Shown piece by piece: positions 1 to 64,000 of a stretch of 64,000 bases of DNA. The stretch is from Eledone cirrhosa (lineage: Eukaryota). A model generated the notes under the pieces. The model did not search any database, was not told the DNA's origin, and was given only the letters and a program-made list of their open reading frames with translations. A program made the translations under genes and the position numbers. The DNA is taken from positions 26,970,001-27,034,000 of the forward strand of contig OZ024762.1 of assembly GCA_964016885.1 (NCBI GenBank), written 5' to 3'. The stretch's first letter is position 1; the number at the start of each line of letters is the position of its first letter.

Positions 1-3000
1 GTGCTCCCTTGGTCTTTCATCTTCCTCACCTATAGTCTGATGTAGAGTGAAGGCCCATTCACACGGGCCATTCTCGCCACTTTCACCCATCTTTCATAGA
101 AACGGCTGGGGTGCAGCACCTCTCTCTCCATCCTGATCCTTCTTCCGAAATGATATCGGAAGAAACGGACCAGTTGTTGGCCAGAGAGAAAGGTGCCTGA
201 CCTCAGTCCTTTCAGACGCGTCCACCATACAACCTCTTTCGCCATGGCTATTACGCACAGAAACACCGCCTCTGCTTCATCTTTGAAGGGGGGAGGCGGC
301 TTGATCATTACAATAGACTCGGTGGTCAACCGGATCGGTCCCACCCTTGACAGCAGTTGTTCGACATAGCCCCACAGATCGGCTACGCCCGAGCAGTGTA
401 CCAATGCGTGTGCAACGGTTTCCTTGTCGCACACGCATCTGGGACAGATCTTTTTGGCGGGGTCCCTACCCGGGCGCCCGTGTCTGTAGAGCCTTTCTCG
501 AACGGGTAAAGCCCCTCGGTAGCACTGCCAGGCCAGGGACTTCTGGAAGTTGTCCATAGGTCCCGGGCTGAATGTCCTACCGAACAGGCTGGCCAGTTCG
601 TCCTCCTCCATGTCTAGGGCTTCTCCGAGGGCGTCGTCGCACCTGCTGCGTACCAGCCCTCTATAGAATGTTGCGGTGGAGTCTCCACTGATAACCGGAT
701 CCGCCTGCCAGAGGGCGGTGAGCTCCCGGGCACACTCAGTGTGCCAGGCGCCCAGTTTTCTCGGTCTTTGCTTGACCCAGGATTGCAGCTCGGTGAGTGA
801 GACGAGTCTGGGAAAGGTTCGTCTCACAAACGAGGCCCACACCGGTTGTCCGGTGAGGAATACGTAGAGGTGCCGTAGCCTTAATGCGTGTTTACGCATC
901 ATTAGCCACGGCATCCCCAGCCCTCCTTTCGAAGGGTGTTGACAGCAGATGGATCTCCTCACCATAGGAGCCCGCCTCTTCCAAAGGAATTGGAAGAGCG
1001 CGCGCTCCATCTTGGTGAGGGTTTCCCTTGGGCAGGGCACTACGGTCAGGCGGTAGTAGATGACGGACGCTATGTAGGTGTTCGCCACCTCCGCCCGACC
1101 TTTCAGGGATAGTTTGCAACTGGCCCACTTCTGGGTCAGTGCAAACACCCTGTTCGTAACCTCCGCCCAGTTTTTCTCCACCTGGAGGTCCGGTCCGAAC
1201 CAGACCCCGAGCAACTTCACCGGGCCCTCCATCCAGCGTCCGACGACGCCATCGGAGGGCATCGGTCTGCCCCTCCACGTGCCGAGTTGCAAACCGATCG
1301 ACTTGTCCCGGTTCAGCTTAGCCCCTGTGAACTTTTCGTACGCCTCCAGTAAGGTGCCGACCGCCTCGATTTCGGAGGCCGTCGACACCATTACTGTCAC
1401 GTCATCGGCGTAGGCCGACACCGCTTTCCGCAATCCCGGTTCCAAAGGGATGCCCTGCAACAACTCCAACTTCCGCAGTAGTGGCTCTAGAGTCAACACA
1501 TACAGAAGGGAGGAGAGAGGGCACCCTTGTCGGATGGACCGCGCGATTTTGAACGGCTCCGAGAGGTAGCCGTTCACCTTGACCCTAGAGCAGATGCGGC
1601 TGCTGTGCATAGCAGTGATCCAGCCCCTGAAAACGGGTCCGAAGCCTGCCGCCGCTAGCACCGCATCCAGGTAACCATGGTCGACCCTATCGAACGCCTT
1701 AGATTGATCCAAGTTGATCAGAGCCCCACCAAAGCCGGGTTCGTTCCCAACCCTCTCTATGATGTATCGCATGAGGTGGAGGTTGTCATGGATGGACCTG
1801 GACGGGATAGCGCATGTCTGCGCATCTCCCACCAGGTTGCCCACGACAAGCGCCAACCTCTTTGCTAGCACCTTGGCCAAAATCTGTAACTCTGTATTTA
1901 GCAGTGTTATGGGCCTGAAGTTACTTATTTCGTCCCCCTTGTTCTCGTCCTTCCTCACTAGCGTGACTACGCCCTTGGTCACAGTACAGGGAATTCTCCC
2001 GTTCTGTTGCCAGTTGCAGTAGACCACCTCGAGGAGATCGGGGAACAAGTCTGCATAGCTAGATATAATTCGTAAGGAAGACCATCGAGACCCGGGGATT
2101 TGCGTTTGCCGCATTGGCTCAGCACGTCCTCTATCTCAGCGGCCGAAATCGGCTCCTCGCAGGACTTCGCCTCCCTGTCCGAGAGGCGCGGCAGGCCGTC
2201 GAGGTATGGACCGAAGTCCACGTTCCCAACCGGCTCCCCGCCCCTCCCGAACAGTCGGGCAAAGTGCCTTTGAAAAGCCTCACACATCTGCTTAGGCTCA
2301 AGAATCGCTCGTCCATCCAGGTCTCGCAAAGACCGGATGGTGGATTTAGTTCCACTGTTGGCCTCTGTCACGCGGGCCCAGCTAACAGCTTTGGTCCCCT
2401 CGTTCCCTAGAGCACGTATTTTACTTCGGACAACGCAGCCTTCGTGCTTCGCGTCGAAAAACTGGCTCAAAGCCGTTCTCGACGCTAGCACTCTGGCCAC
2501 GTCGCCGCTTCTAATTGCCTCTTCTACTCTATCTATTAGCTCCCTTTCCTTCCTATTCCTATCCGCAGCTAGAACCTTACTAAATTCTATCGAGACTACT
2601 CTAATCTCTCTCTTTAGAGATACCCACCACCTGCTGTTGACGATCGCTCCAGTCAACCGTTCCTTAACTAACGTACTAATCCGATTCCTGTAGGCTCTAC
2701 TTGCCGGCAAGGACAAGTTGAGCTTCCAGTAACCGGGGCCCTGTCTATGAGTTCTGTCAAGGTTGACCATGCAGGTCACTAATTTGTGGTCTGAATAGCC
2801 AACCATGCGCATTTTTGGACAACTTAAAAAGTCCTTATCCTTAATTCTAACTAAGAACCTATCTAGGTACGACCTAGATGATCCGCTACGATTTGCCCAA
2901 GTCCAGGTTGGCGCAGTCGGAAAATCTAGTCGATATCTATCGGCCAGGTCAAATCGACCGATTAACCCTTTGAGGCTACTACACCCCTCTCTATCGGGGC

Positions 3001-4094
3001 AGGCCCCTACGTAGTCCCAGCGTGCATCTAGGATACCATTCCAGTCCCCCACTAATAGCAAGGAGCGGGACGTCCCTAGATAAGTCTCCGGACGATGGAA
3101 GAAGTCCGGCCGCATTGACCCGAAAGGGCCGTAGGCGGCTACCAACCTAAACGCTCCGCCTTTACCACTGCCAAGGTCCAGAACCACTAGTCGACCCTCC
3201 GGGTCCAAATGTACCATCTGTGTTCCGAGACCCAGATGTTTTTGCAGCAGAACGACAACTCCACCCCCGCCTCCGGGCTGACAGAGAGATGCGTGCATCT
3301 CAAAGTCATCAAAGGTGGGGGCCAGCTGTTGCACGTTGCTGATCCGGGCCTCGCAAATAACCATCACATCTATACGTTGTGACCTGAGGTCATTTAGAAG
3401 CATTGCTTGCTTCCAAGTTGAGCCCAGGCCACGCGCATTTAAACAGCCTACTCTTAGCATAGCCATGTTGGTGGTGAAGAGAAAAGGCACTTACCTCTCT
3501 GCGTCCCGGGTATCGGGCTGCACAATTTCCATTAGGGTGGGGGATGGGTTGTTGGGTGGGGTGGTGGTTTGTGGAAGTGTGGGGGCATCAGTGTGATGTG
3601 TGGTTGGGGAGCTTGGAGTTGTGTGGGTGTTTGGGGAGGGGGTGGGGTAGTTTTTTAGGAGGACGCGGTTAATGGGCCCGACGCAGGGGGGACCCACGTC
3701 CTCTTTAAAATTGTTTTTTAAAGTTTTATAGGTGTCCTGTGGGGCCTTAATCATTTTGAGGTGGGGGAAATCCCCTGCCTGGGTGAAGTTAGGCCCTTGT
3801 GTTTTTATTAGATTGTTGTTGTACACAATGTTTCACAGTTTTTTGTTTCTTGTATTTATGTATGTGTATGCATGTTTTTGTTTTTGTGTGGTGTTTTTTG
3901 TTTGCTGTTGTTGTGAGCTCTTTTGTGTTGGTGTCAGTGTTATGTTTTGGGGAGGGGTTTTTTTCATTTGTGTGTCTGAGGTGTGTTTTCTTTTTTTTCT
4001 TTTGATTGTGTGGAAGTGCTCCTCCTCGTCTGACGACGAACTAGGGTCATCTTCCGCGTTGGAGGGGAGGGGTATATTTTCGGGTTGTGTTTGC
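1..4094 (-). mobile_element. Tx1/L1-clade non-LTR retrotransposon, copy A (5'-truncated; 3' UTR runs off window start)
   Basis: APE endonuclease, RT and C-terminal CCHC (CPRC..HALVHC). Closely similar to copy B at about 4388 bp offset. The 5' truncation point abuts (GATA)n at 4095. Confidence 0.93.
30..3490 (-). pseudogene. Tx1 ORF2 (EN-RT-zf), copy A, split by a 1-bp frameshift near 2051
   Basis: ORF 1979..3490 has EN motifs LNARG, GDWN, YLDRF, SDHK. ORF 30..2114 has FRPITLLN, DQSKAFD, RQGCPLS, AYADD. Copy A reads aagtctgcatag where copy B reads aagtccggcatag. Confidence 0.9.

Positions 4095-4154
<60 letters not shown>
4095..4154. repeat. (GATA)15 microsatellite between the two Tx1 copies
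   Basis: Read directly from the sequence. Confidence 0.97.
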
Positions 4155-4417
4155 TGTTTCTTTTATTTGCCACCAGGGCATCAAAAGTGGGACAAGTACA
4201 ATGGGGGGAGTTTACAAAACAAGGCGTCCTCAATAAGGAGGAGGCAATAACAATATATAAAAATAAAATAAAATGTAACAAAGAATAAAATTTATAACAA
4301 AGTCCTCAATAGAGAGGAGGCGCCTTGGGGGTTCGCTCACACCCCGAAAAAAGTGTGCAACCCTTCTCCTCAGGAGCACAGAGAAGGGGTGCTCCCTTGG
4401 TCTTTCATCTTCCTCAC

Positions 4418-7400
4418 CTATAGTCTGATGTAGAGTGAAGGCCCATTCACACGGGCCATTCTCGCCACTTTCACCCATCTTTCATAGAAACGGCTGGGGT
4501 GCAGCACCTCTCTCTCCATCCTGATCCTTCTTCCGAAATGATATCGGAAGAAACGGACCAGTTGTTGGCCAGAGAGAAAGGTGTCTGACCTCAGTCCTTT
4601 CAGACGCGTCCACCATACAACCTCTTTCGCCATGGCTATTACGCACAGAAACACCGCCTCTCCTTCGTTTTTGAAGAGGGGAGGCGGCTTGATCGTTACA
4701 ATAGACTCGGTGGTCAACCGGATCGGTCCCACCCTTGACAGCAGTTGTTCGACATAGCCCCACAGATCGGCAATGCCCGAGCAGTGTACCAATGCGTGTG
4801 CAACGGTTTCCTCGTCGCACACGCATCTGGGACAGATCTTTTTCGATGGGTCCCTACCCGGGCGCCCGTGTCTGTAGAGTCTTTCTCGAACGGGCAGAGC
4901 CCTTCTGTAGCATTGCCAGGCCAGGGACCTCTGGAAGTTATCCATGGGTCCCGGGCTGAATGTCCTACCGAACAGGTTGGCCAGTTCGTCTTCCTCCATG
5001 CCTAGGGCTTCTCCGAGGGCGTCGTCGCACCTGCTAACCACCAGCCCTCTATAGAATGATGAGGTGGATTCTCCACTGACCGCCGGGTCCGCCTGCCAGA
5101 GAGCCGTGAGCGCCTGGGCACACTCAGTGTGCCAGGCGCCCAGTTTTCTCGGTCTTTGCTTGACCCAGGATTGCAGCTCGGTGAGTGAGACGAGTCTGGG
5201 AAAGGCTCGCCTCACAAACGGGGCCCACACCGGTTGACCAGAGAGGAATACATGAAGGTGCCGTAGCCTTAATGCGTGTTTACGTATCATTAGCCACGGC
5301 ATCCCCAGCCCTCCTTTCGAAGGGTGTTGACAGCAGATGGATCTCCTCACCATAGGAGCCCGCTTCTTCCAAAGGAATTGGAAGAGTGCGCGCTCCATTT
5401 TGGAGAGCGTTTGCCTTGGGCAAGGCACAACGGTCAGGCGGTAGTAGATGACGGACGCTATATAAGTGTTCGCCACCTCCGCCCGACCTTTCAGGGACAG
5501 TTTGCACTCGGCCCACTTCTGGGTCAGTGCAAACACCCTGTTCGTCACCTCACCCCAGTTCTTCTCCACCTGGAGGTCTGGTCCGAACCAGACCCCGAGC
5601 AACTTCACCGGGCCCTCCGTCCAGCGCCCGACGACGCCATCGGAGGGCATCGATCTGCCCCTCCACGTGCCGAGTTGCAGACCGATCGACTTGTCCCGGT
5701 TCAGCTTAGCCCCTGTAAACCTTTCGTACTCCTCCAGTAAGGTGCCGATCGCCCCGATTTCCGAGGCCGTCGACACCATTACTGTTACGTCATCGGCGTA
5801 GGCTGACACCGCTTTCCGCAATCCCGGTTCCAACGGGATGCCCTGCAACAACTCCAACTTCTGCAGCAGTGGCTCTAGAGTCATTAGATACAGGAGGGAG
5901 GAGAGAGGGCACCCCTCTCGGATGGACCACGCGATTTCGAACGGCTCCGAGAGGTAGCCGTTCACCTTGACCCTAGATCAGATGCGGCTGCTGTGCATGC
6001 CATTGATCCAGCCCCTGAAAACGGGTCCGAAGCCTGCCGCCGCTAGCACCGCATCCAGGTAACCATGGTCGACCTTATCGAATGCCTTAGATTGATCCAA
6101 GTTGATCAGGGCCCCACCAAAGCCGGGTTCGTTCCCAACCCTCTCTATGATGTATCGCACGAGGTGGAGGTTATCGTGGATGGACCTGGACGGGATAGCA
6201 CATGTCTGCGCATCTCCCACCAGGTTGCCCACGACAAGCGCCAACCTCTTTGCTAGCACCTTGGCCAAAATCTGTAACTCTGTATTTAGCAGAGTTATGG
6301 GCCTGAAATTATTTATATCGTCCCCCTTGTTCTCGTCCTTCCTCACTAGCGTGACTACACCCTTGGTCACAGCACAGGGAATTCTCCCGTTCTGTTGCCA
6401 GTTGCAGTAGACCGCCTCGAGGAGATTGGGGAACAAGTCCGGCATAGCTAGATATAGTTCGTATGGAAGACCATCGAGACCCGGTGATTTGCGTTTGCCG
6501 CATTGGCTCAGCACGTCCTCTATCTCAACGGCTGAAATCGGCTCCTCGCAGGACTTCGCCTCCCTGTCCGAGAGACGCGGCAGGCCGAGGAGGTATGGAC
6601 CGAAGTCCACGTCCCCAACCGGCCCCCCGCCCCTTCCGAACAATCCGGCAAAGTGCTTTTGAAAAGCCTCGCACATCTGCTTAGGTTCAAGGATCACCTG
6701 TCCATCCTGGTCTCGCAAAGACCGGATAGTGGATCTGCTCCCTCTTCTGGCTTCTGTCACGCGGGCCCAGCTAACAGCTTTGGTCCCCTCGTTTCCCAGA
6801 GCACGTATTTTGCTTCGGACGATGCAGCCTTCGTGTTTCGCGTCGAAGAACTGGCCCAGGGCCGTTCTCGACGCTAGCTCTCTGGCCACGTCGCCGCTTC
6901 TAATTGCCTCTTCTACGCTATCTACCAACTCCCTTTCCTTCCTATTTCTATTGGAGGCTAACTCCTTACTAAATTCTATAGAGACTACTCTAATCTCTCT
7001 TTTGAGAGATCCCCACCACCTGCTGTTGACGATGGCGCCCGTCAACCGCTCCTTAACTAAAGTGCTAATCCGGACCCTGTAAGCCTTACTTGCCGGTAAG
7101 GACAAGTTGAGCTTCCAGTAACCGGGTCCCTGTCTATGAGTTCTGTCAAGGTTGACAATGCAGGTCACTAACTTGTGGTCTGAATAGCCAACCATGCGCA
7201 TTTTTGGACAACTTAAAAAGTCCTTATCCTTAATTCTAACTAAGAACCTATCTAGGTACGACCTAGATGATCCGCTACGATTTGCCCAAGTCCAGGTTGG
7301 CGCAGTCGTAAAATCTAGTCGATATCTATCGGCCAGGTCAAATCGACCGATTAACCCTTTGAGGCTTTTACACCCCTCTCTATCGGGACAGGCCCCTACG

Positions 7401-7879
7401 TAGTCCCAGCGTGCATCTAGGATACCATTCCAGTCCCCCACCAATAGCAAGGAGCGGGACGTCCCTAGAAAAGTCTCCAGACGATGGAAGAAGTCCGGCC
7501 GCATTGACCCGAAAGGGCCGTAGGCGGCTACCAACCTAAACGCTCCGCCTTTACCACTGCCAAGGTCCAGAACCACTAGTCGACCCTCCGGGTCCAAATG
7601 TACCATCTGTGTTGCGAGACCCAGATGTTTTTGTAGCAGAACGACAACTCCACCCCCACCTCCGGGCTGACAGAGAGATGCGTGCATCTCAAAGTCATCA
7701 AAGGTGGGGGCCAGCTGTTGCACGTTGCTGATCCGCGCCTCGCAAATAACCATCACATCTATACGTTGTGACCTGAGGTCATTTAGAAGCATTGCTTGCT
7801 TCCAAGTTGAGCCCAGGCCACGCGCATTTAAACAGCCTACTCTTAGCATAGCCATGTTGGTGGTGAAGAGAATAGGCAC
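4418..7879 (-). pseudogene. Tx1 ORF2 (EN-RT-zf), copy B, one in-frame nonsense codon at 5978-5980
   Basis: ORFs 5978..7879 and 4418..5965 are in the same frame. TGA stands where copy A has TGC (SSRI-C-SR). Confidence 0.9.
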
Positions 7880-8177
7880 TTACCTCTCTGCGTCCCGGGT
7901 ATCGGGCTGCACAATTTCCATTAGGGTGGGGGATGGGTTGTTGGGTGGGGTGGTGGTTTGTGGAAGTGTAGGGGCATCAGTGTGTTGTGTGGTTGGGGAG
8001 CTTGGAGTTGTGTGGGTGTTTTGGGAGGGGGTGGGGTAGTTTTTTAGGAGGACGCGGTTAATGGGCCCGACGCAGGGGGGACCTACGTCCTCTTTAAAAT
8101 TGTTTTTTAAAGTTTTATAGGTGTCCTGTGGGGCATTAATCATTTTGAGGTGGGGGAAATCCCCTGCCTGGGTGAAG

Positions 8178-8912
8178 TTAGGCCCTTGTGTTTTTATTAG
8201 ATTGTTGTTGTACACAATGTTTAACAGTTTTTTGTTTCTTGTATTTATGTATGTGTATGCATGTTTTTGTTTTTTGTGTGGTGTTTTTTGTTTGCTGTTG
8301 TTGTGAGCTCTTTTGTGTTGGTGTCAGTGTTATGTTTTGGGGAGGGGTTGTTTTCATTTGTGTGTCTGAGGTGTGTTTTCTTTTTTTTCTTTTGATCGTG
8401 TGGAAGTGCTCCTCCTCGTCTGACGACGAACTAGGGTCAACTTCCGCGTTGGATGGGAGGGGTATATTTTCGGGTTGTGTTTGCGGTGCGGGTGTTTTGG
8501 AAATTGTTTTTGTTTTTTGAGTGGAGGGGATGGGTTGGACATTGTTTTGTTTTGGTTTGAGCTGTGGTGGTTGTTTTTGTAGTGGTAGTTGTGGTGATTG
8601 TGTTGGTTGTGCAGTTGTTGGTGGTGTAGGCAGGATTGGGGTTTTCTTATTAAGTTGGGGACAGACAGCCCTCGGGTGACCTCTGGTTCCGCAGAGGTAA
8701 CACGAGGGCCGTCTACCCTCAACGGTAATGTTGATGAAGGTTAGATCATCCAGTATGACGCTTTCAGGGCTCTGGGCGATCCTTTCGGGCCTCATTTGAA
8801 CTACAAGTTCGAGGCTCGTTCCAATGAACGCGTCACCCGATGCCTTTCCCATGGACACCAGCATGTCATCCTCCAGGTCCAGGAAACCTGTCAAAACCCA
8901 CCATATGTCCAT
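8178..8912 (-). CDS. Tx1 ORF1 (gag-like) C-terminal part with CCHC zinc knuckle
   Basis: CYLCGTRGHPRAVC (CX2CX4HX4C) followed by a P/Q/T/K-rich tail, upstream of ORF2. Confidence 0.8.
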   Translation of the reverse strand: MDIWWVLTGFLDLEDDMLVSMGKASGDAFIGTSLELVVQMRPERIAQSPESVILDDLTFINITVEGRRPSCYLCGTRGHPRAVCPQLNKKTPILPTPPTTAQPTQSPQLPLQKQPPQLKPKQNNVQPIPSTQKTKTISKTPAPQTQPENIPLPSNAEVDPSSSSDEEEHFHTIKRKKRKHTSDTQMKTTPPQNITLTPTQKSSQQQQTKNTTQKTKTCIHIHKYKKQKTVKHCVQQQSNKNTRA

Positions 8913-8944
8913 AATCGGCAGGATGGCGTGGATTCATTCAGAAG

Positions 8945-9015
<71 letters not shown>
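8945..9015. repeat. (GATA)~18 microsatellite at the 5' junction of Tx1 copy B
   Basis: Read directly from the sequence. Confidence 0.97.
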
Positions 9016-13729: not shown

Positions 13730-15612
13730 AAGTTTAGGAAAAACACACTCAGGAGAAAAAGCTACCTAAGACGACTGAATGGTGATCTAGGAAAATTGAA
13801 GAACTCGACCACATTTTGGTACACGCAGATAAAACTAACAACCTGTACGATATGGATAGAGTAACCTATGACGATTTGATAACTAGAGAACCTAGGAAAA
13901 GCTACAGAAAAACTATACGGGCCAACTTGGATGTAATCAACACGGAGGCCAATAGCGTCATGACTAAAATCAGTATTGAAGATAAAACGGAACCCTTCCA
14001 TCCTAGAACTCCGAGGATTTTGTTGAAGGACCACAAATTAGACTTTGAATCATCAAGACCTGTCAGACTGATAGACCCTTCGAAGTCAGACATAGGAATC
14101 GTGAGTAAAAACATCCTTGATAAAATAATCCCCACTCTAGTTAGGAGTTCGAAGCTTAAATTTTGGTCAGGAACTAGTGAGGTAATTAACTGGTTTGAGA
14201 AATCGCAGAATAAGAATAGCACTAAGTTTATACAGTTCGATATCTCTAATTACTACTCTTCGATCTCTCCAACTATTCTAGGTAGGGCCCTTAACTTTGC
14301 TACACCGACCTTACATCCGAAGAAATTAACACTATTCTTCTAGCTAGGAAAACCTTAATTGAGTTCAACGGTGACTTGTGGACCAGGAAGGATTGGCCAG
14401 ATAATTTCGACATCACCATGGGATCCACGGACTCGGCATAGGTGACAGATCTGATGGGCATTTACTTCCTTGACTGTCTCTGAGTGGAAATGCCCCACTT
14501 GGGAGGCGGCCCTTACCGTGACGACATTTTGTTTACTGTGTCGTTCCATAATAATAGTATGGTAGAGAAAGTGAGGAAAAAAACTAAGCAAATTCTTCAA
14601 GAACATAGACCTAAGTATAGTATTTGAAGAGAACTTTAAAATAGTTAATTTTCTAGATGTTACACTAACCTCAATTCAGGACTCTTCCAACCCTATCACA
14701 AACCCAACGAGAATCTGAACTATGTCAACGCAAAATTGAACCACCCTAGAATAGTCACTAACGGTATTACCAAAAGCGTCTCTAGTAGAATTTCAGGAAT
14801 ATCTTCCAATGAAGATACCTTTAATAAGATCTATAATAGCGCCCTAGAACGCGCGGGGCATAGCGAGGGATTCTCATTCAAACGTCCATTAAATAGTAGT
14901 AACAACACTGCCTGCGATAGCTTAGGCCAAGATAGTGACACTCTAGTTAACAGCAGGCGTGATACAAGGGAGGATTTATATAGACTTCATGTTGTATTGC
15001 CTCCTAGTCCCAATGTTGATGGTACCAATGGAAACAACCAGCCAGGTACTAACACGGGGTCTGAGCACCGTAACGCCAGCGGAAACTCTAATTGTAACCT
15101 TAATGGTAAAACAACCGTTGAACGTAAGATGGAACGAGGGTCGGGTAAAGGGAATAGAGATAGGTGTAGCAGACGCATAGTGGATTTAATCCCGGCTATC
15201 GAGGGTAATCCCAATGGCTGCACCGGGGGGGTACACCGCCTCGGGGACTTGGGACGATTCAGAACACAATCGTGACACCCCAGGACACCATCGACCCACA
15301 GGCAATTTCCAGTTATAATAGACCAGTAGCTACTAAGGTGACAGGTATCACTAATATAGTTAATAAGAACAAGAGGCATCGGACCAGAAAAAATCATGTG
15401 GTATATGGTATAATCCCCTTACTCCACTGGCCTGACCACTAGTAGAGCTAAGCTTTTCTTTAAGGCCTTATACAAATGCTTCCCTAGATCACACAGATAC
15501 TATAAAATATTCAATAGGAATACCATCAAGCTGTCCTACTCCACAACTAGTAACATAGCTCAGAATATAGCTAAAATGAATTATAGTAGACTTAGGACAG
15601 CCCAAGGGGGAT
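13730..15612 (+). mobile_element. Decayed Penelope-like element, RT region
   Basis: RLIDPSKSDIG, FIQFDISNYYSSI, FDITMGS, YRDD, VNFLDVTL, YHKPN, WYNPPYS, KIFNRNTIKLSYS across frameshifts and stops. Confidence 0.85.
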
Positions 15613-15744
15613 CTCTGTATATAATTCATTGTCGCTTAGGTGTTCAAAGGCTAGGTTGTTGTATGCGTCATCTCTCAAGCAACATACAAAAACCTAGCCT
15701 TTGAACACCTAAGCGACAGTGAATTATACACAGAGGTCCCGGAC

Positions 15745-16575
15745 ATGACTGCAGCCCAGATCGAAAAACAGACCAACTCCATCTGGTTCGATATCTGTAG
15801 GAGAAGACAACTCCCAAATAAAGTTAAGCTCAACTACACCACTAGAAATAGCAGACTGTCCACTTTCTACCACCTCATCAAGACCCACAAGAATAGTACT
15901 AAGACGCAAATAAGAACCATCGTCTCTAGCATAGAAGGACCCCTATACAAAATTTCCTGGCTCCTCTCCCAGGTCCTCAAGCCTCTACTCCCCACCTTTC
16001 CCGGGCATGTCAGTAGCTCCGACGAAGTTATACGTAGACTACACCAACTCCAGCCAGAACAACTTAAATTAAATAGATACGCATTTAGCCTCGACGTTGT
16101 CTCCCTCTACACTACAGTCCCCGCTAATCCACCTGTCGATTTATTGAGGGGCTGCATGGTCGCAGGGGACATCCACTGCTACGGCCTCCATCCGACGGAT
16201 ATACACCAGCTTTTGTCCTTCACAGTAGACAACACGTACTTCACCTTCCACCACCACACATACAGACAGACAACAGGATTACCCATGGGATCTAGCCTAT
16301 CGGGCCTGCTGGCCATCACCTATATGAACCAGCTAGAATGCCGAGCCCTCAACACCTGCCATTCCCATACCATCTTCACCCGATATGTAGATGACATACT
16401 CATCCTTACATCATCCCGTGAGGAGGCAGATAAAATATACACAACATTCTCCAGCATGGACGCCAGTATAAAGTTCAGCAGGGAACACCCCGATGACCAC
16501 GGATCCCTATCCCTACTGGACTTCCAACTCAGGGTAACAGAGGAAGGCAACATCCACACCTGCTTCTATAAATAA
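15745..16575 (+). CDS. Penelope-like reverse transcriptase core (partial)
   Basis: RT motifs SLDVVSLY, GLPMGS, YVDD, LLDF. Confidence 0.8.
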   Translation: MTAAQIEKQTNSIWFDICRRRQLPNKVKLNYTTRNSRLSTFYHLIKTHKNSTKTQIRTIVSSIEGPLYKISWLLSQVLKPLLPTFPGHVSSSDEVIRRLHQLQPEQLKLNRYAFSLDVVSLYTTVPANPPVDLLRGCMVAGDIHCYGLHPTDIHQLLSFTVDNTYFTFHHHTYRQTTGLPMGSSLSGLLAITYMNQLECRALNTCHSHTIFTRYVDDILILTSSREEADKIYTTFSSMDASIKFSREHPDDHGSLSLLDFQLRVTEEGNIHTCFYK

Positions 16576-25482: not shown

Positions 25483-26561
25483 TATCTCAAAGAACTCTGT
25501 CATCCCATCAGGTGTAATGACTTGCGCTTTGGTATTGGTGTAGAGCAGTGATATCAGGTCCACTATCTTCTTGGGGGTTCCATAAGCCTGTAAGATCTTC
25601 ATCAGGTAGTGACGGTCCAAAGAATCAAAGGCCTTCCTAAAGTCAATGAAAACCCTGACCGCAGGAAGGCACTTTGGAAGATACATTGGCTCCCTACCTG
25701 CTTATCATCGTAGTGGACTATAGTATGCGCCTTGCACTGGAGAAACATCAGGACTCTGGCTTTACTGTAGCACCGGCTCAGAACAGGAGAGTTAAGGAGA
25801 AAAAGATATCGGATGCTGAATTTGCCGGCGACAGAGTTTGCTGACAAATACAGTGAAGGAGGCTGAGGATTTGATGCAGGAGGTTGAGACTGTGTCGATG
25901 AGTGTGGGGCTGAGAATGAATGAAACTAAAACAAAATATCTGGTAGAGAATGTTGAGAAGCCAGAGGGGATCACTAATGTAGGCGGGAAGCCGCTGGAAT
26001 TGGTTGAGGACTTCCTGTATTTGGGAGCAAAGGTTGGGAATACGGAAGATGATGTAGTTAAGAGGAAGGGCAAAGCCTGGGCGGCGTGCCACAGCTTCAG
26101 ATCCGTGTGGAAGTCGGACCTTCGTAAAGACCTGAAAATCCGCCTCTTCATTGCTGTAGTGGAGTCTGTGCTGCTGTACGGGTCTGAGACTTGGACACTG
26201 ACCAAGAAACTCACTCAGATGGTGGATGGGTGCTACACGAGAATGCTAAGGATGGCTCTGAACATTAATCAGTATACACTGAGGAGGAAAATCTCAGAGC
26301 TGTATGGGAGCCTCCCAAAAGACAGTTCAAAAGTGACACAGAGGAGTCTGGGGTTGGCTGGACGTACTCACCGACGTCCGGAGTTTACATTGCGCTCAGT
26401 GCTCCTGTGGCAGCCCCTGCATGGACACACTGGTGAAGAAAGGCCAAGGTTAACGTATGTTGATGCCCTAAGGCCAGACACTGGTCTGTTGGAGACGCAG
26501 GACATGGCAGCAATAATGAGGGACAGAGACCGCAGGAGAGAAATCGTCCATGGATCTCGGA
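25483..26561 (+). mobile_element. RTE-clade LINE, 5'-truncated with 5' inversion (25483-25676 minus; 25679-26561 plus)
   Basis: Homologous to 54027-57340. Motifs IDFRKAFDS (minus) and ESVLLYGSETW, DGCYTRMLR (plus). Confidence 0.88.
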
Positions 26562-54025: not shown

Positions 54026-54037
54026 ATATCTATCTAT

Positions 54038-54737
54038 CTAAGGCGGGTAAAATTCCCGAGATCCATGGACGAGTTCTCTCCAGCGGTCTCTGTCCCTCAT
54101 TATCGCTGCCATATCCTGCATCTCCAACAGACCAGTGTCTGTCCTTGGGGCATCAACATATGTTAACCTTGGTCTTCCTCTTCTAGTGTGTCCATGTAGG
54201 GGCTCCCAAAGGAGAACTGAGTGCAATGTCAACTCTGGATGTCGGTGAGCATGTCCAGCCAACCTCAATCTCCTCTGTGTCACTTTTGAGCTGACTTTTG
54301 GGATGCTCCCATACAGCTCTGAGTTTTTCATCCTCAGAGTATACTGATTAATGTTCAGAGCCATCCTCAGCATTCTCGTGTAGCACCCATCCACCATCTG
54401 AGTGAGTTTCTTGGTCAGTGTCCAAGTCTCAGACCCACACAGCAGCACAGACTCCACTACAGCAATAAAGAGGCGGATTTTCAGGTCTCTACGAAGGTCC
54501 GACTTCCACACCGATCTCAAGCTGTGACACGCCGCCCAGGCCTTGCTCTTCCTCTCAACCACATCATCTTCCGTATTCCCAATCTTTGCTCCCAAATACA
54601 GGAAGTCCTCAACCAATTCCAGCGGCTTCCCGCCTACATTAGTGATCCCCTCTGGCTTCTCAACATTCTCTACCAGATATTTTGTTTTAGTCTCATTCAT
54701 TCTCAGCCCCACACTCATCGACACAGTCTCAACCTCC
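54038..54737 (-). CDS. RTE ORF C-terminal part (non-inverted segment)
   Basis: GLRMNETKTK, FLYLG, RRLRLAGH, RGRP; the stop TAG begins the (TAGA)n tail. Confidence 0.8.
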
Positions 54738-54946: not shown

Positions 54947-57340
54947 ATGGCGAGTCGATCTAACAGCACTAGGGTTAGAGCCCCTAATTACACTGTCAAG
55001 GAGCAGCCTGGTCGTTATGACTCTGCTGGCTTAGAGCCACAGAGAGGGCCAGTGGATGATGGATCAGCTGTCTCTGAGACAAATATAAAGAATGCAGTTT
55101 TGTCCTGCAGAAGAGCCATCAAAATGGGCACTTTGAATGTGAGGACTATTCGAACGCTGGAGAAGAGAGAGGAGTTAGGACATCTATTCGAGGAGAGTGG
55201 TATACAGATACTTGCGATCCAAGAACACAGGATTCTACACGATGAGCCCGTGAGGAGTGTGATGATCGGGAGGAAGAGCCAGCTCATCACTACATCGGCA
55301 GTGAAGAACACAACAAATGCTGCAGTAGGAGGAGTGGGTTTTGTGTTCAGTGCAAAAGCCAATCTGTTGGTGAGGGAAATAATGCCTATCTCCCCGCGAG
55401 TGTTGAGGGTGACCTTCAATGGAAACCCAAGACTGACAGTCATCTCAGCCTATAGTCCAACCGAGGGGGACAGTGATGTGAATGCCGAGGAGTTCCATGA
55501 GGAGGTGTGTAGAGCTGTCAACACCACTCAGGCACACAATATCCTGCTTGTTTTGGGGGACTTCAATGCACATCTGAGTAAGGAGGGCAGTGAAGATCCT
55601 TGCTGGTACTTCCATAACAACACCAACCGAAATGGAAGACTACTGAGAGACACCCTGCTGGAGGCGAACTTGATGGCGACCAACCTAAGGTTTAGGAAGA
55701 ATCTGGGGAAGATGTGAACCTACATCTCAGATATGCACCTGTCCAAGTCCCAGATTGATTTCATTCTGGTGAGGAAAAAGTGGCGGAATAGTGTTCTGAA
55801 CACGGAACCATACAGCTATTTCAGTACACTGGGTAGTGACCACCGGCTTGTTATGAGTGAGGTCCGCGTGAGCTTAAGAAAGAGCAAGGCTCAGCCCCGG
55901 AGAACAATCTATGACTGGGGAGCTTTCAAGGAAGATGATAAGCTACAGGAGAGGTTCACAGTGGAAGTGAGAAACAGGTTTAGTGCTCTGTGTGGAGAGT
56001 CAGAGGAGAGAGAGATTGGATGGACTGAGGAGAGTGTGACGAGGAGGTACGGGCACTTCACCAATGCAGTGGCGAAAGCAAGTGAAACCCTGGTGCCGAG
56101 GAAAAAGAACAAAGGGAAGCACGTCAGCTCTGCAAACCCAAAAGTGTGTGCAGCCAGAGAACACCTGAAAGCTGCCAGGGACCAATTCTATGCTGATCCT
56201 ACGGAGGAGAGGATGGAGACTGTGGAGGTGATGAGGGAAGAGCTCTGTACCGCTTACACTGAGGTCAGAGAGGAGGCACTGATAGAGAAGATCAGAAGCG
56301 TGGGGAGAGCGGTTGACAGATCTGGATGTAAGGAGAGCTGGATGATCATCAACGAGATCACAGGGAGGATGAAAAGGTGTTCGTGTCAGATCCAGGGAAC
56401 GGGGCCCGAGGATAGGAAGAGGAAATGGCTAAACCATTTTAGGACCCTACTAGGAGAGCCACCCTCCACAGCCCAGAACACTGGGGAGATCAGGCGGCTG
56501 TTTGAGGAACTGGATGTTGAGACAGAGCCCTTCACCAGAGAGGAGCTTCAGAGAGCCAAGAAGAAGATCAAGGAGGGCAAGGCTCATGGAGAAGATGGAG
56601 TGGCATCAGAGGTGATGAAGAGGTGTGATTTTGATGATATCATCCTGGGGTTCTGTAACGCGGCACTGGAGAAAGGAGTTGCCCCGAATCAGTGGAGGAT
56701 CAGTAACATCGTCCCAGTGCCAAAGAAGGGAGATCTCTCTAACACCAACAACTACCGGGGGATATCACTGACGTCACTTGTGGCAAAGACCCTCAACAGG
56801 ATGATTCTTAACAGGATCCAGCCTGAGATGGAGAAGAAGCTCAGGGACAACCAGAACGGCTTCAGAGAGGATAGATCAACCACCAGTCACATCCTGATGC
56901 TGAGGAGTATATTAGAGGGAGCTAGAGCAAAGTGCCTTCCTGCGGTCATGGTTTTCATTGACTTTAGGAAGGCCTTTGATTCTGTGGACCGTTACTGCCT
57001 GATGAAGATCTTACAGGCTTATGGAATCCCCAAGAGGATAGTGGACCTGATATCACTGCTCTACACCAACACCAAAGCCCAAGTCATTACACCTGATGGG
57101 ATGACAGAGTTCTTTGAGATACTGGCTGGAGTGCTCCAGGCAGATACATTGGCTCCCTACCTTTTTATCATCGTAGTGGACTATTGTATGCGCCTTGCAC
57201 TGGAGAAACACCAGGACTCTGGCTTTACTGTAGCACCGGCTCAGAGCAGGAGAGTTGGGGCGAAAAAGGTATCGGATGCTGAATTTGCCGACGACATAGT
57301 TTTGGTGACAAATACAGTGAAGGAGGCGGAGGATTTTATG
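54947..57340 (+). pseudogene. RTE EN-RT ORF, one in-frame TGA at 55715-55717, broken at the inversion point
   Basis: ORFs 54908..55717 and 55733..57475 share a frame; the tail after 57340 is microsatellite. Confidence 0.87.
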
Positions 57341-57430
57341 TGCATATATATGTATATATATGTATGTATTTATATATTTGTATACATATATATGTACATA
57401 TGTATGTATATATATGTATGTACGTATAAC

Positions 57431-57465
<35 letters not shown>

Positions 57466-57497
57466 TGGATTTTAGTCTTCAAATTTATTATTATTAT

Positions 57498-60815: not shown

Positions 60816-60817
60816 AC

Positions 60818-61080
60818 AGAAGTCAGCTCGAAAGTAACACAGAGGAGACTGAGGTTAGCTGCACATGCTCACCGACATTCAGATTTGACACTGCACTCAG
60901 TGTTCTTGTGGGAGCCCCCTACCCGGACACACTAGAAGAGGGAAACCGAGGAGGACATATATTGATGCCCTGAGGTCAGACATTGGTCTTTGGGAGATGC
61001 AGGACATGGCGGCAATGATGAAAGACAGAGACCGCTGGAAAGAACTCATACATGGATCTCAGTAATTTTACACGCCCTAG

Positions 61081-63306: not shown

Positions 63307-64000
63307 TATCTATCTATCTAGGGATGGTAAATTTCCCTAGATCCATGGACGAGTTCTCTCCAGCAGTCTCTGTCCCTCATTATCGTTGCCATGTCCTGCG
63401 TCTCCAACAGACCAGTGTCTGTCCTTAGGACATCAACATACCTTAACCTTGGTCTTCCCCTTCCAGTGTGTCCATGCAGAGGCTTCCACAGGAGCACTGA
63501 GTGTAGTGTCAACTCTGTATGTCGGTGAGCATGTCCAGCTAACCTCAGTCTCCTCTGTGTCACTTTTGAGCTGACTTTTGCGAGGCTTCTGTACAGCTCT
63601 GAGGTTTTCATCCTCAGTGTATACTGATTAATGTTCAAAGCGATCCTCATGCATTCTCGGGTAGCACCCATCCACCATCTGAGTGAGTTTCTTGGTCAGT
63701 GTCCAAGTCTCAGACCCGTACAGCAGCACAGACTCCACTACAGCAATGAAGAGGCGGATCTTCAGGTCTCCACGAAGGTCCGACTTCCACAACGATCTCA
63801 AGCTGTGGCACGCAGCCCATGGCTTTGCTCTTCCTCTCAACGACATCATCTTCCGTATTCCCAATCTTTGCTCCCAAATACAGGAAGTCCTGAACCAATT
63901 CTAGCGGCTTCCCGCCTTTATTATTGATCCCCTCTGGTTCTCAACATTCTTTACCAGATATTTTGTCTTAGTCTCATTCATTCTCAGCCCCACACTCATC
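63307..64000 (-). mobile_element. RTE-clade LINE 3' part with (TAGA)n tail (continues beyond window)
   Basis: Frameshifted homologue of 54038-54737. Confidence 0.88.

What the first reader, a model, noticed from the sequence alone, without database searches (positions are those of the whole stretch)
1..9015. Tx1-clade LINE apparently targeting (GATA)n and building a head-to-tail array
Seen: two diverged copies in the same orientation with different 5' truncation points (4094, 8944). All three visible junctions lie in (GATA)n of the same polarity, and there is no poly(A): AATAAAAGAAACA runs straight into (TATC)n. Known: Tx1-clade elements include sequence-specific families (Kibi and Koshi on pyrimidine microsatellites, Keno on U2 snRNA genes, Dewa on tRNA arrays). 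Inference: independent insertions by a GATA-specific APE endonuclease, a specificity I do not recall being described.
Basis: partly seen in the sequence, partly recalled or inferred. Interest (0 to 1): 0.75.

Follow-up and report, generated by a model that had tools for sequence, protein, structure and literature searches.

The report
Octopod LINE family targeting GATA repeats
These are two separately inserted copies of a young jumping-gene family, probably from an octopus, that lands at a short TATCTAT motif and so piles up head-to-tail in GATA repeats, likely because its cutting enzyme and RNA end both match that motif; repeat-seeking elements of this kind are known, but I did not find this repeat described as a target.

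Summary
Observation confirmed, with corrections. Two 5'-truncated L1/Tx1-type LINE copies (95% alike, each closer to copies elsewhere) sit head-to-tail in (GATA)n; two more related copies extend the stack upstream. Copy B ends at 8934; 8935-8944 is a 10-base inversion. The family has 1,488 exact 3' ends, 896 followed by TATCTATC. In 100 fetched copies the 3' flank starts TAT in 97 and never poly(A). Of 79 5'-truncated copies, 49 have two or more TATC units upstream, none in reverse (background 0.3%). Thirteen of 18 non-repetitive duplications begin at the first flank base, so TATC is target, not copied tail. The target is a short motif (about C^TATCTAT), not strictly the array. TATC-flanked families form one branch, apart from relatives ending in (ATT)n. 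Tx1 membership is consistent but unanchored; Repbase/Dfam could not be checked. The scan noted this family before on other DNA (three earlier findings). Verdict: new variant of known microsatellite-targeting Tx1 elements.

The parts
1..4094 (-). LINE copy A, 5'-truncated in ORF1; its 3' end lies 235 bases before the window and is followed by (TATC)17+
   Evidence: nearest of 100 fetched copies 98.8-99.6% per 500-base segment
30..3466 (-). ORF2 of copy A (APE endonuclease, reverse transcriptase, C-terminal CCHC), frameshifted near 2050
4095..4154 (.). (GATA)15; reads (TATC)15 in element sense; 3' flank of B and 5' flank of A
4155..8934 (-). LINE copy B, 5'-truncated about 930-950 bases from the full-length head
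   Evidence: nearest fetched copies 98-100% per segment
4155..4417 (-). 3' UTR of B; AATAAA at 4162-4167, seven bases before the end; no poly(A)
   Evidence: sequence; terminal 28-mer has 1,488 exact matches in the genome
4418..7855 (-). ORF2 of copy B, one in-frame stop at 5978-5980; Exo_endo_phos, RVT_1, zf-RVT
   Evidence: collinear with human L1 ORF2p (intact copy L073)
7880..8934 (-). 3' part of ORF1 of B, in two frames (one frame in 4 of 8 checked relatives); CCHC knuckle at 8661-8702
8935..8944 (+). 10-base inverted piece of the element; in full-length copies it is followed by GATAGA, which matches the adjoining array (twin-priming signature, inferred)
   Evidence: 16-base match 8935-8950 to positions 789-804 of natural full-length copy L073, 144 bases 5' of the truncation
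8945..9015 (.). (GATA)17.8; 5' flank of copy B

Best explanation
Copies A and B are separate insertions of a young L1/Tx1-type LINE family whose copies sit at a short motif, about C^TATCTAT in element sense, most often inside (TATC)n arrays, likely because its APE endonuclease nicks the GATA strand there and the freed end pairs with matching repeat bases on the RNA. Steps: (1) inferred: transcription runs past AATAAA into the flanking repeat, so the RNA carries some UAUC after ...GAAACA; (2) inferred from junctions: the nick falls at 5'-ATAGATA^G on the GATA strand; (3) inferred: the 3' end anneals to the first UAU(C)U of the RNA, so reverse transcription starts at the element's last base and no poly(A) or extra tail is copied (the absence is shown); (4) shown: duplications of roughly 11-19 bases start at TAT; (5) shown: every insertion leaves TATC on both sides, and later copies of this and related families land there in the same orientation, building the stack.
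For: 896 of 1,488 exact 3' ends are followed by TATCTATC. First 100 copies by position on contig C1: flank starts TAT 97, TATC 88, TATCTAT 75, TAT(C/A)T 95, poly(A) 0. 5' side (98 scored; L125 and L131 dropped; 9 junctions corrected by hand): 49 of 79 truncated copies have two or more TATC units within 30 bases, 0 of 79 in reverse, 36 of 62 when copies behind another element's 3' end are removed; background 0.3%. Unbiased duplication search: 13 of 18 non-repetitive matches start at the first flank base, the other 5 lie in local tandem repeats. At TATATTTC, TATATATCTG and TATCATTT sites no TATC is added (L129, L137, L124, L153). Bases before the cut read TCTATC (C at -1 in 15 of 24). B's 10-base inversion needs a TATC end as primer. 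Another clade member lies within 500 bases downstream in the same orientation for 33 of 100 copies, opposite for 0. Endonuclease motifs align with human L1 ORF2p.
Against: 30 of 79 truncated copies lack two TATC units at the called 5' junction; about ten older copies show no duplication at all. Only 50 of 100 have two perfect units on the 3' side. The preference upstream of the cut may only reflect repeat periodicity. Full-length heads sometimes carry extra TATC-like bases beyond the duplication (L105, L116), so their 5' flanks (18 of 19) are not independent evidence. The sample is one contig's first 100 exact-match ends, which favours young copies. No biochemical or RNA data.
Confidence: 0.62

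Rival explanations
1. Specificity comes mainly from RNA-DNA pairing: a loose, TA-preferring endonuclease nicks widely, and only nicks whose 3' end pairs with read-through UAUCU prime efficiently.
For: The strongest conservation is in the primer bases 0 to +6 (91-100% except +5 at 87%); mismatch is tolerated at +3 (A in 8 of 100). Related families that end in (ATT)n keep an endonuclease hairpin differing mainly at one position. Pairing of RNA and target is proposed for SART1Bm and R1Bm (PMC7265360, passages).
Against: C at -1 and TCTAT further upstream lie outside the primer. (TA)n arrays are far commoner in the window than GATA arrays, yet TATA starts only 8 of 100 flanks. TATC and ATT groups have 44 near-fixed endonuclease differences and separate in trees.
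Confidence: 0.27
2. TATC is only a templated tail, as for RTE or L2 elements that generate microsatellites; 5' arrays are tails of older neighbours.
For: 24 of 100 copies sit directly behind another clade member's 3' end; all 3' ends are repeat-like.
Against: 36 of 62 free-standing truncated copies still have TATC upstream; duplications start at the first flank base and no TATC is added at non-TATC sites.
Confidence: 0.06
3. The array arose by local tandem duplication or misassembly of one copy.
For: A and B are adjacent, same strand, and 98-99% alike in their ORF1 parts; some stacks elsewhere do look duplicated (L142-L144).
Against: A and B differ by 4-10% across most of ORF2 while each has 98-99.6% relatives on contig C1; different truncation points; two more diverged relatives (about 79% alike where aligned) lie upstream.
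Confidence: 0.03

Closest known systems
Kibi (TC)n and Koshi (TTC)n of teleosts; crocodilian Tx1 families on (TTCC)n/(TTTC)n (PMC4494074 and PMC3812793, passages)
   Same: APE-type LINE with preference for a microsatellite; passes Kojima's rule of more than 20% of flanks; pyrimidine-rich strand in element sense.
   Different: Target is TATC/GATA, not listed in the passages read; invertebrate host; preference is for a short motif also used outside arrays; relation to these families not tested because their sequences could not be fetched.
Xenopus laevis Tx1L (PMC1950540, passages)
   Same: APE endonuclease targeting; hairpin loop between the T192 and S202 anchors is the candidate reading element.
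   Different: Tx1L inserts in the Tx1D transposon; its loop is two residues longer than L1's, whereas this family's loop has L1's length in the alignment.
Human L1 (PDB 8sxt and others)
   Same: Best solved-structure match (E 3e-43, residues 8-855); duplications, 5' truncation, 5' inversions.
   Different: L1 nicks TTTT/AA and copies poly(A); here 0 of 100 copies have poly(A); ORF1 has a CCHC knuckle and no L1 ORF1 Pfam match.
Waldo (ACAY), Mino (AC), Dong (TAA), Togen (TG) microsatellite-targeting elements (PMC3812793, PMC4640811, passages)
   Same: Same strategy of hiding in microsatellites.
   Different: Other clades and other repeats; none listed on GATA.
L1-Tx1 families in the Octopus vulgaris annotation (PMC13282606, first third of text plus term search)
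   Same: 13 recently active L1-Tx1 families are reported in an octopus.
   Different: The word 'target' does not occur in that paper's main text; whether this family is among them was not tested.

Membership tests
L1 group of non-LTR retrotransposons (L1 + Tx1) | ORF2 with N-terminal APE endonuclease, RT and C-terminal CCHC, collinear with L1 ORF2p | tested here: met
   Pfam Exo_endo_phos and RVT_1 above cutoff, zf-RVT just below; human L1 ORF2p 151 bits against R2 75 or less
Tx1 clade | RT phylogeny groups it with named Tx1 elements | tested here: inconclusive
   No named Tx1 sequence came back from three homologue searches. A quick tree of 37 RT regions splits it (SH-aLRT 98) from lizard, plant and other L1-like proteins, but a yeast protein falls on its side on a long branch
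Tx1 clade | ORF1 with CCHC zinc knuckle rather than vertebrate L1-type ORF1 (feature recalled, from no call) | tested here: met
   CX2CX4HX4C present; Pfam zf-CCHC E 0.003-0.035, below the curated cutoff; no L1 ORF1 family hit
Target-specific Tx1 families | One sequence type in more than 20% of flanks (criterion in PMC4494074) | tested here: met
   896 of 1,488 3' ends; 49 of 79 truncated 5' ends
Target-specific Tx1 families | Endonuclease domain nicks the target sequence in vitro | not testable with these tools
   needs a nicking assay
Kibi / Koshi | Target is (TC)n or (TTC)n | tested here: not met
   TATCTCTC starts 2 of 100 flanks; TATCTAT starts 75
Vertebrate-type L1 | Poly(A) tail and TT/AAAA target | tested here: not met
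   0 of 100 copies with poly(A)
RTE/L2-type elements with a microsatellite tail | Repeat units added between element end and duplication | tested here: not met
   13 of 18 non-repetitive duplications start at the first flank base; the other 5 are in local tandem repeats
Already catalogued family | Listed with this target in Repbase or Dfam | not testable with these tools
   neither library is offered

The most novel reading that the evidence does not exclude
Within one octopod LINE lineage, microsatellite specificity switched from (ATT)n to (TATC)n; the TATC branch then radiated into at least six families that now abut half or more of the genome's longer GATA arrays and renew their own landing sites. 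Both kinds have intact young copies with 69% identical ORF2, and the tip of the endonuclease hairpin (Ser in TATC, Ile in ATT families) tracks the target, giving a natural pair for working out how APE endonucleases change specificity.
Probability: 0.3. Interest if true: 0.65.

Novelty: new variant of a known kind. Interest (0 to 1): 0.45.

Why it matters
It adds GATA/TATC to the repeats used as safe harbours by APE-type LINEs, with about 1,500 copies and many intact ORF2 frames in one animal genome. A review states that the mechanism of microsatellite targeting by these elements is not well understood (PMC3812793, passage). Close relatives in the same genome that end in a different repeat make the question testable by domain and RNA-end swaps. 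It also warns that GATA microsatellite markers in this animal often sit against a mobile element.

Tried and rejected
Single-sequence AlphaFold model of the endonuclease: pLDDT 33, not used. Endonuclease-only PDB search gave only a spurious kelch hit. Protein atlas held neither query. Three homologue searches gave no named Tx1 anchor; cluster look-up named only Argonauta and Xenopus proteins. No RNA holder listed; contigs of three runs laid on the 3' region did not show the flank beyond the element end, so they are not used. Careful protein tree did not finish; the quick tree is cited as such. Not held: Fell 2025, Christensen 2000, Ostertag and Kazazian 2001; supplements of PMC4494074, whose figures list Tx1 targets, could not be read; Kojima and Fujiwara 2004 was not read. 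A 2026 review says the Fell screen used RT and restriction-like endonuclease models, so it probably did not cover APE elements. The duplication list starts at the first flank base by construction, so the tail test rests instead. The GATA array count (8,158) is a lower bound because the pattern misses arrays preceded by A. Rejected: tandem duplication of A from B; TATC as pure tail; strict requirement for a long array.
Full report
What is in the window. Two copies of one LINE lie on the minus strand: A (1-4094) and B (4155-8934), 94.9% identical over 4,096 bases. ORF2 carries Pfam Exo_endo_phos, RVT_1 and zf-RVT; in an intact copy it is collinear with human L1 ORF2p over residues 8-855, E 3e-43, well above R2. 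Both window copies are broken: A by a frameshift near 2050, B by a stop at 5978-5980. Perfect (GATA)15 and (GATA)17.8 lie at 4095-4154 and 8945-9015. B ends AATAAAAGAAACA and runs into (TATC)n with no poly(A). Upstream of the window, A ends the same way, followed by two 5'-truncated relatives that also end in (TATC)n, so the stack has four elements. The closest named protein is from Argonauta hians, 62% identical over the RT and C-terminal part, so the host is probably an octopod (inference).

Independent insertions. Per 500-base segment, A has 98.8-99.6% and B 98-100% relatives among 100 copies on contig C1, while A and B match each other at only 90-96% across most of ORF2. This excludes local duplication. 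B's last 10 bases (8935-8944) are absent from the other 39 listed hits. They are the reverse complement of a piece 144 bases further 5' in natural full-length copies, where the next bases are GATAGA. This fits twin priming: the TATC end of the target paired with internal GAUAGA of the RNA (inference; the concept is cited from a passage of PMC4859970, the original paper was not held). It implies that the array was there when B arrived.

The family. The terminal 28-mer has 1,488 exact matches in the 3.0 Gb genome, 896 of them followed directly by TATCTATC. A protein search listed 150 near-identical endonuclease domains, most in unbroken frames of about 1,153 codons, so the family is young. I fetched the first 100 of the 1,488 by position on C1. 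Their 3' flanks start TAT in 97, TATC in 88, TATCTAT in 75, TATCTATC in 50, poly(A) in 0.

Target or tail. For the 5' side I dropped L125 (fused to another copy) and L131 (gap) and corrected 9 junctions by hand. Of 79 truncated copies, 49 have two or more TATC units in the 30 bases upstream and none has them in reverse; without copies that follow another element's 3' end, 36 of 62; background about 0.3% of windows. Thirty of the 79 lack two units; some are clean duplications of non-repeat sites, about ten show no duplication. An unbiased search found non-repetitive matches between the two flanks in 18 of 98 copies: 13 start at the first flank base, 5 start later and lie in satellites or tandem copies. 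At sites such as TATATTTC or TATCATTT nothing is added. So TATC is taken from the target, and the site is a short motif, TCTATC^TATCTAT at its best (C at -1 in 15 of 24 duplications). Full-length copies (18 of 19 with TATC upstream) are weaker evidence, since L105 and L116 carry extra TATC-like bases between duplication and head.

Stacking. Another clade member lies within 500 bases downstream of 33 of 100 copies in the same orientation and of none in the opposite one; 45 of 100 have a neighbour on one side or the other. Conversely, of the first 30 loci from 8,158 matches to a four-unit GATA pattern, 15 abut a clade member by 3' end or alignment and 3 more probably do; two of these loci are one array and four of the negatives are one satellite, and the pattern is a biased lower bound.

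Mechanism. Best reading: the endonuclease nicks the GATA strand at ATAGATA^G; the RNA, read past AATAAA into the donor's flank, pairs with the freed end, so copying starts at the element's last base and skips poly(A). The junction pattern is shown; the nick, read-through and pairing are inferred. RNA-target pairing is proposed for SART1Bm and R1Bm (PMC7265360, passages). How much is enzyme and how much is pairing cannot be split from sequence alone.

A sister group with another repeat. A related element 14-20 kb upstream of the window (L032, 71% identical) is flanked by (ATT)14 and (ATT)5. Its 3' motif has 2,119 matches with up to one mismatch. In the first 40, 31 read CATTATT at the end and 37 have an ATT/AAT run; all 29 full-length copies have (ATT)n upstream, but the 11 truncated ones mostly do not, and L277 looks as if a short tail was added. 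Target versus tail is therefore open for this group. ORF2 proteins of the two groups are 69% identical. In a tree of 3' coding DNA (38 of 152 ends) the ATT families form one branch, 100/100; in a quick RT tree the 7 TATC representatives form one branch (SH-aLRT 100) inside ATT-ending and octopod relatives, the nesting resting on one row. Among 26 TATC and 18 ATT endonuclease domains there are 44 near-fixed differences; one, Ser194 versus Ile, aligns with the tip of the hairpin that in L1 probes the minor groove (PMC1950540, passages). It is a candidate only.

Comparison with what is known. Passages of PMC4494074 list Tx1-clade targets as Tx1D, U2, (TC)n, (TTC)n, (TTCC)n, (TTTC)n and several transposons; PMC3812793 lists ACAY, AC, TC, TTC and TAA; PMC4640811 adds (TG)n. 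None of the passages read names GATA. Eight literature searches listed no paper on a GATA-targeting LINE; term searches in two octopus repeat papers found no such statement. Kojima and Fujiwara 2004, the supplements of PMC4494074, Repbase and Dfam were not seen and could hold it. Tx1 membership is consistent with the architecture and a quick tree but has no named anchor; Dewa and Mutsu are recalled names. The scan noted this family before: two findings in this genome and one in another; a look-up for the ATT group found nothing.

Verdict. New variant of a known kind; interest 0.45.

Noticed in passing
L032:426-6279 (G000:C23, about 14-20 kb before the window): Full-length related LINE flanked by (ATT)14 and (ATT)5; its group has about 2,100 3' ends and intact 1,150-codon frames, and separates from the TATC families in trees.
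   Followed up: partly
L031:8635-9366 (965 to 235 bases before window base 1): Two further 5'-truncated relatives, each ending in (TATC)n, complete a four-element stack that ends in (TA)n.
   Followed up: yes
window 54027-54300, 63307-63580, also 26316-26560 and 60817-61079: 3' ends of an unrelated LINE (DUF6451 weak hit; RT frame at 55718-57472) that end in about three GATA units followed by various microsatellites; here GATA looks like a short tail, in the opposite polarity. Clade not tested.
   Followed up: partly
L105, L116 (5' junctions): Full-length copies carry 11-16 extra TATC-like bases between the duplication and the element head, as if transcripts start in the donor's repeat and seed new repeat at the new site.
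   Followed up: partly
L087, L088, L155: Copies inserted in short satellites whose unit contains TATCT or TATCTAAT.
   Followed up: no
L110: Copy with an inverted 227-base 5' head, a second 5'-inversion case; TATC on the 5' side, (TA)n on the 3' side.
   Followed up: partly
L073, L106, L118, L145 (heads and bodies): At least two head types and several ORF2 subfamilies share one 3' end; window copies A and B are 99% alike at both ends but 88-90% in mid-ORF2, suggesting recombination between subfamilies.
   Followed up: no
window 13786-16572 (+): Broken frames with an RVT_1 hit at 15655-16572 (E 4e-14), probably another retroelement.
   Followed up: no
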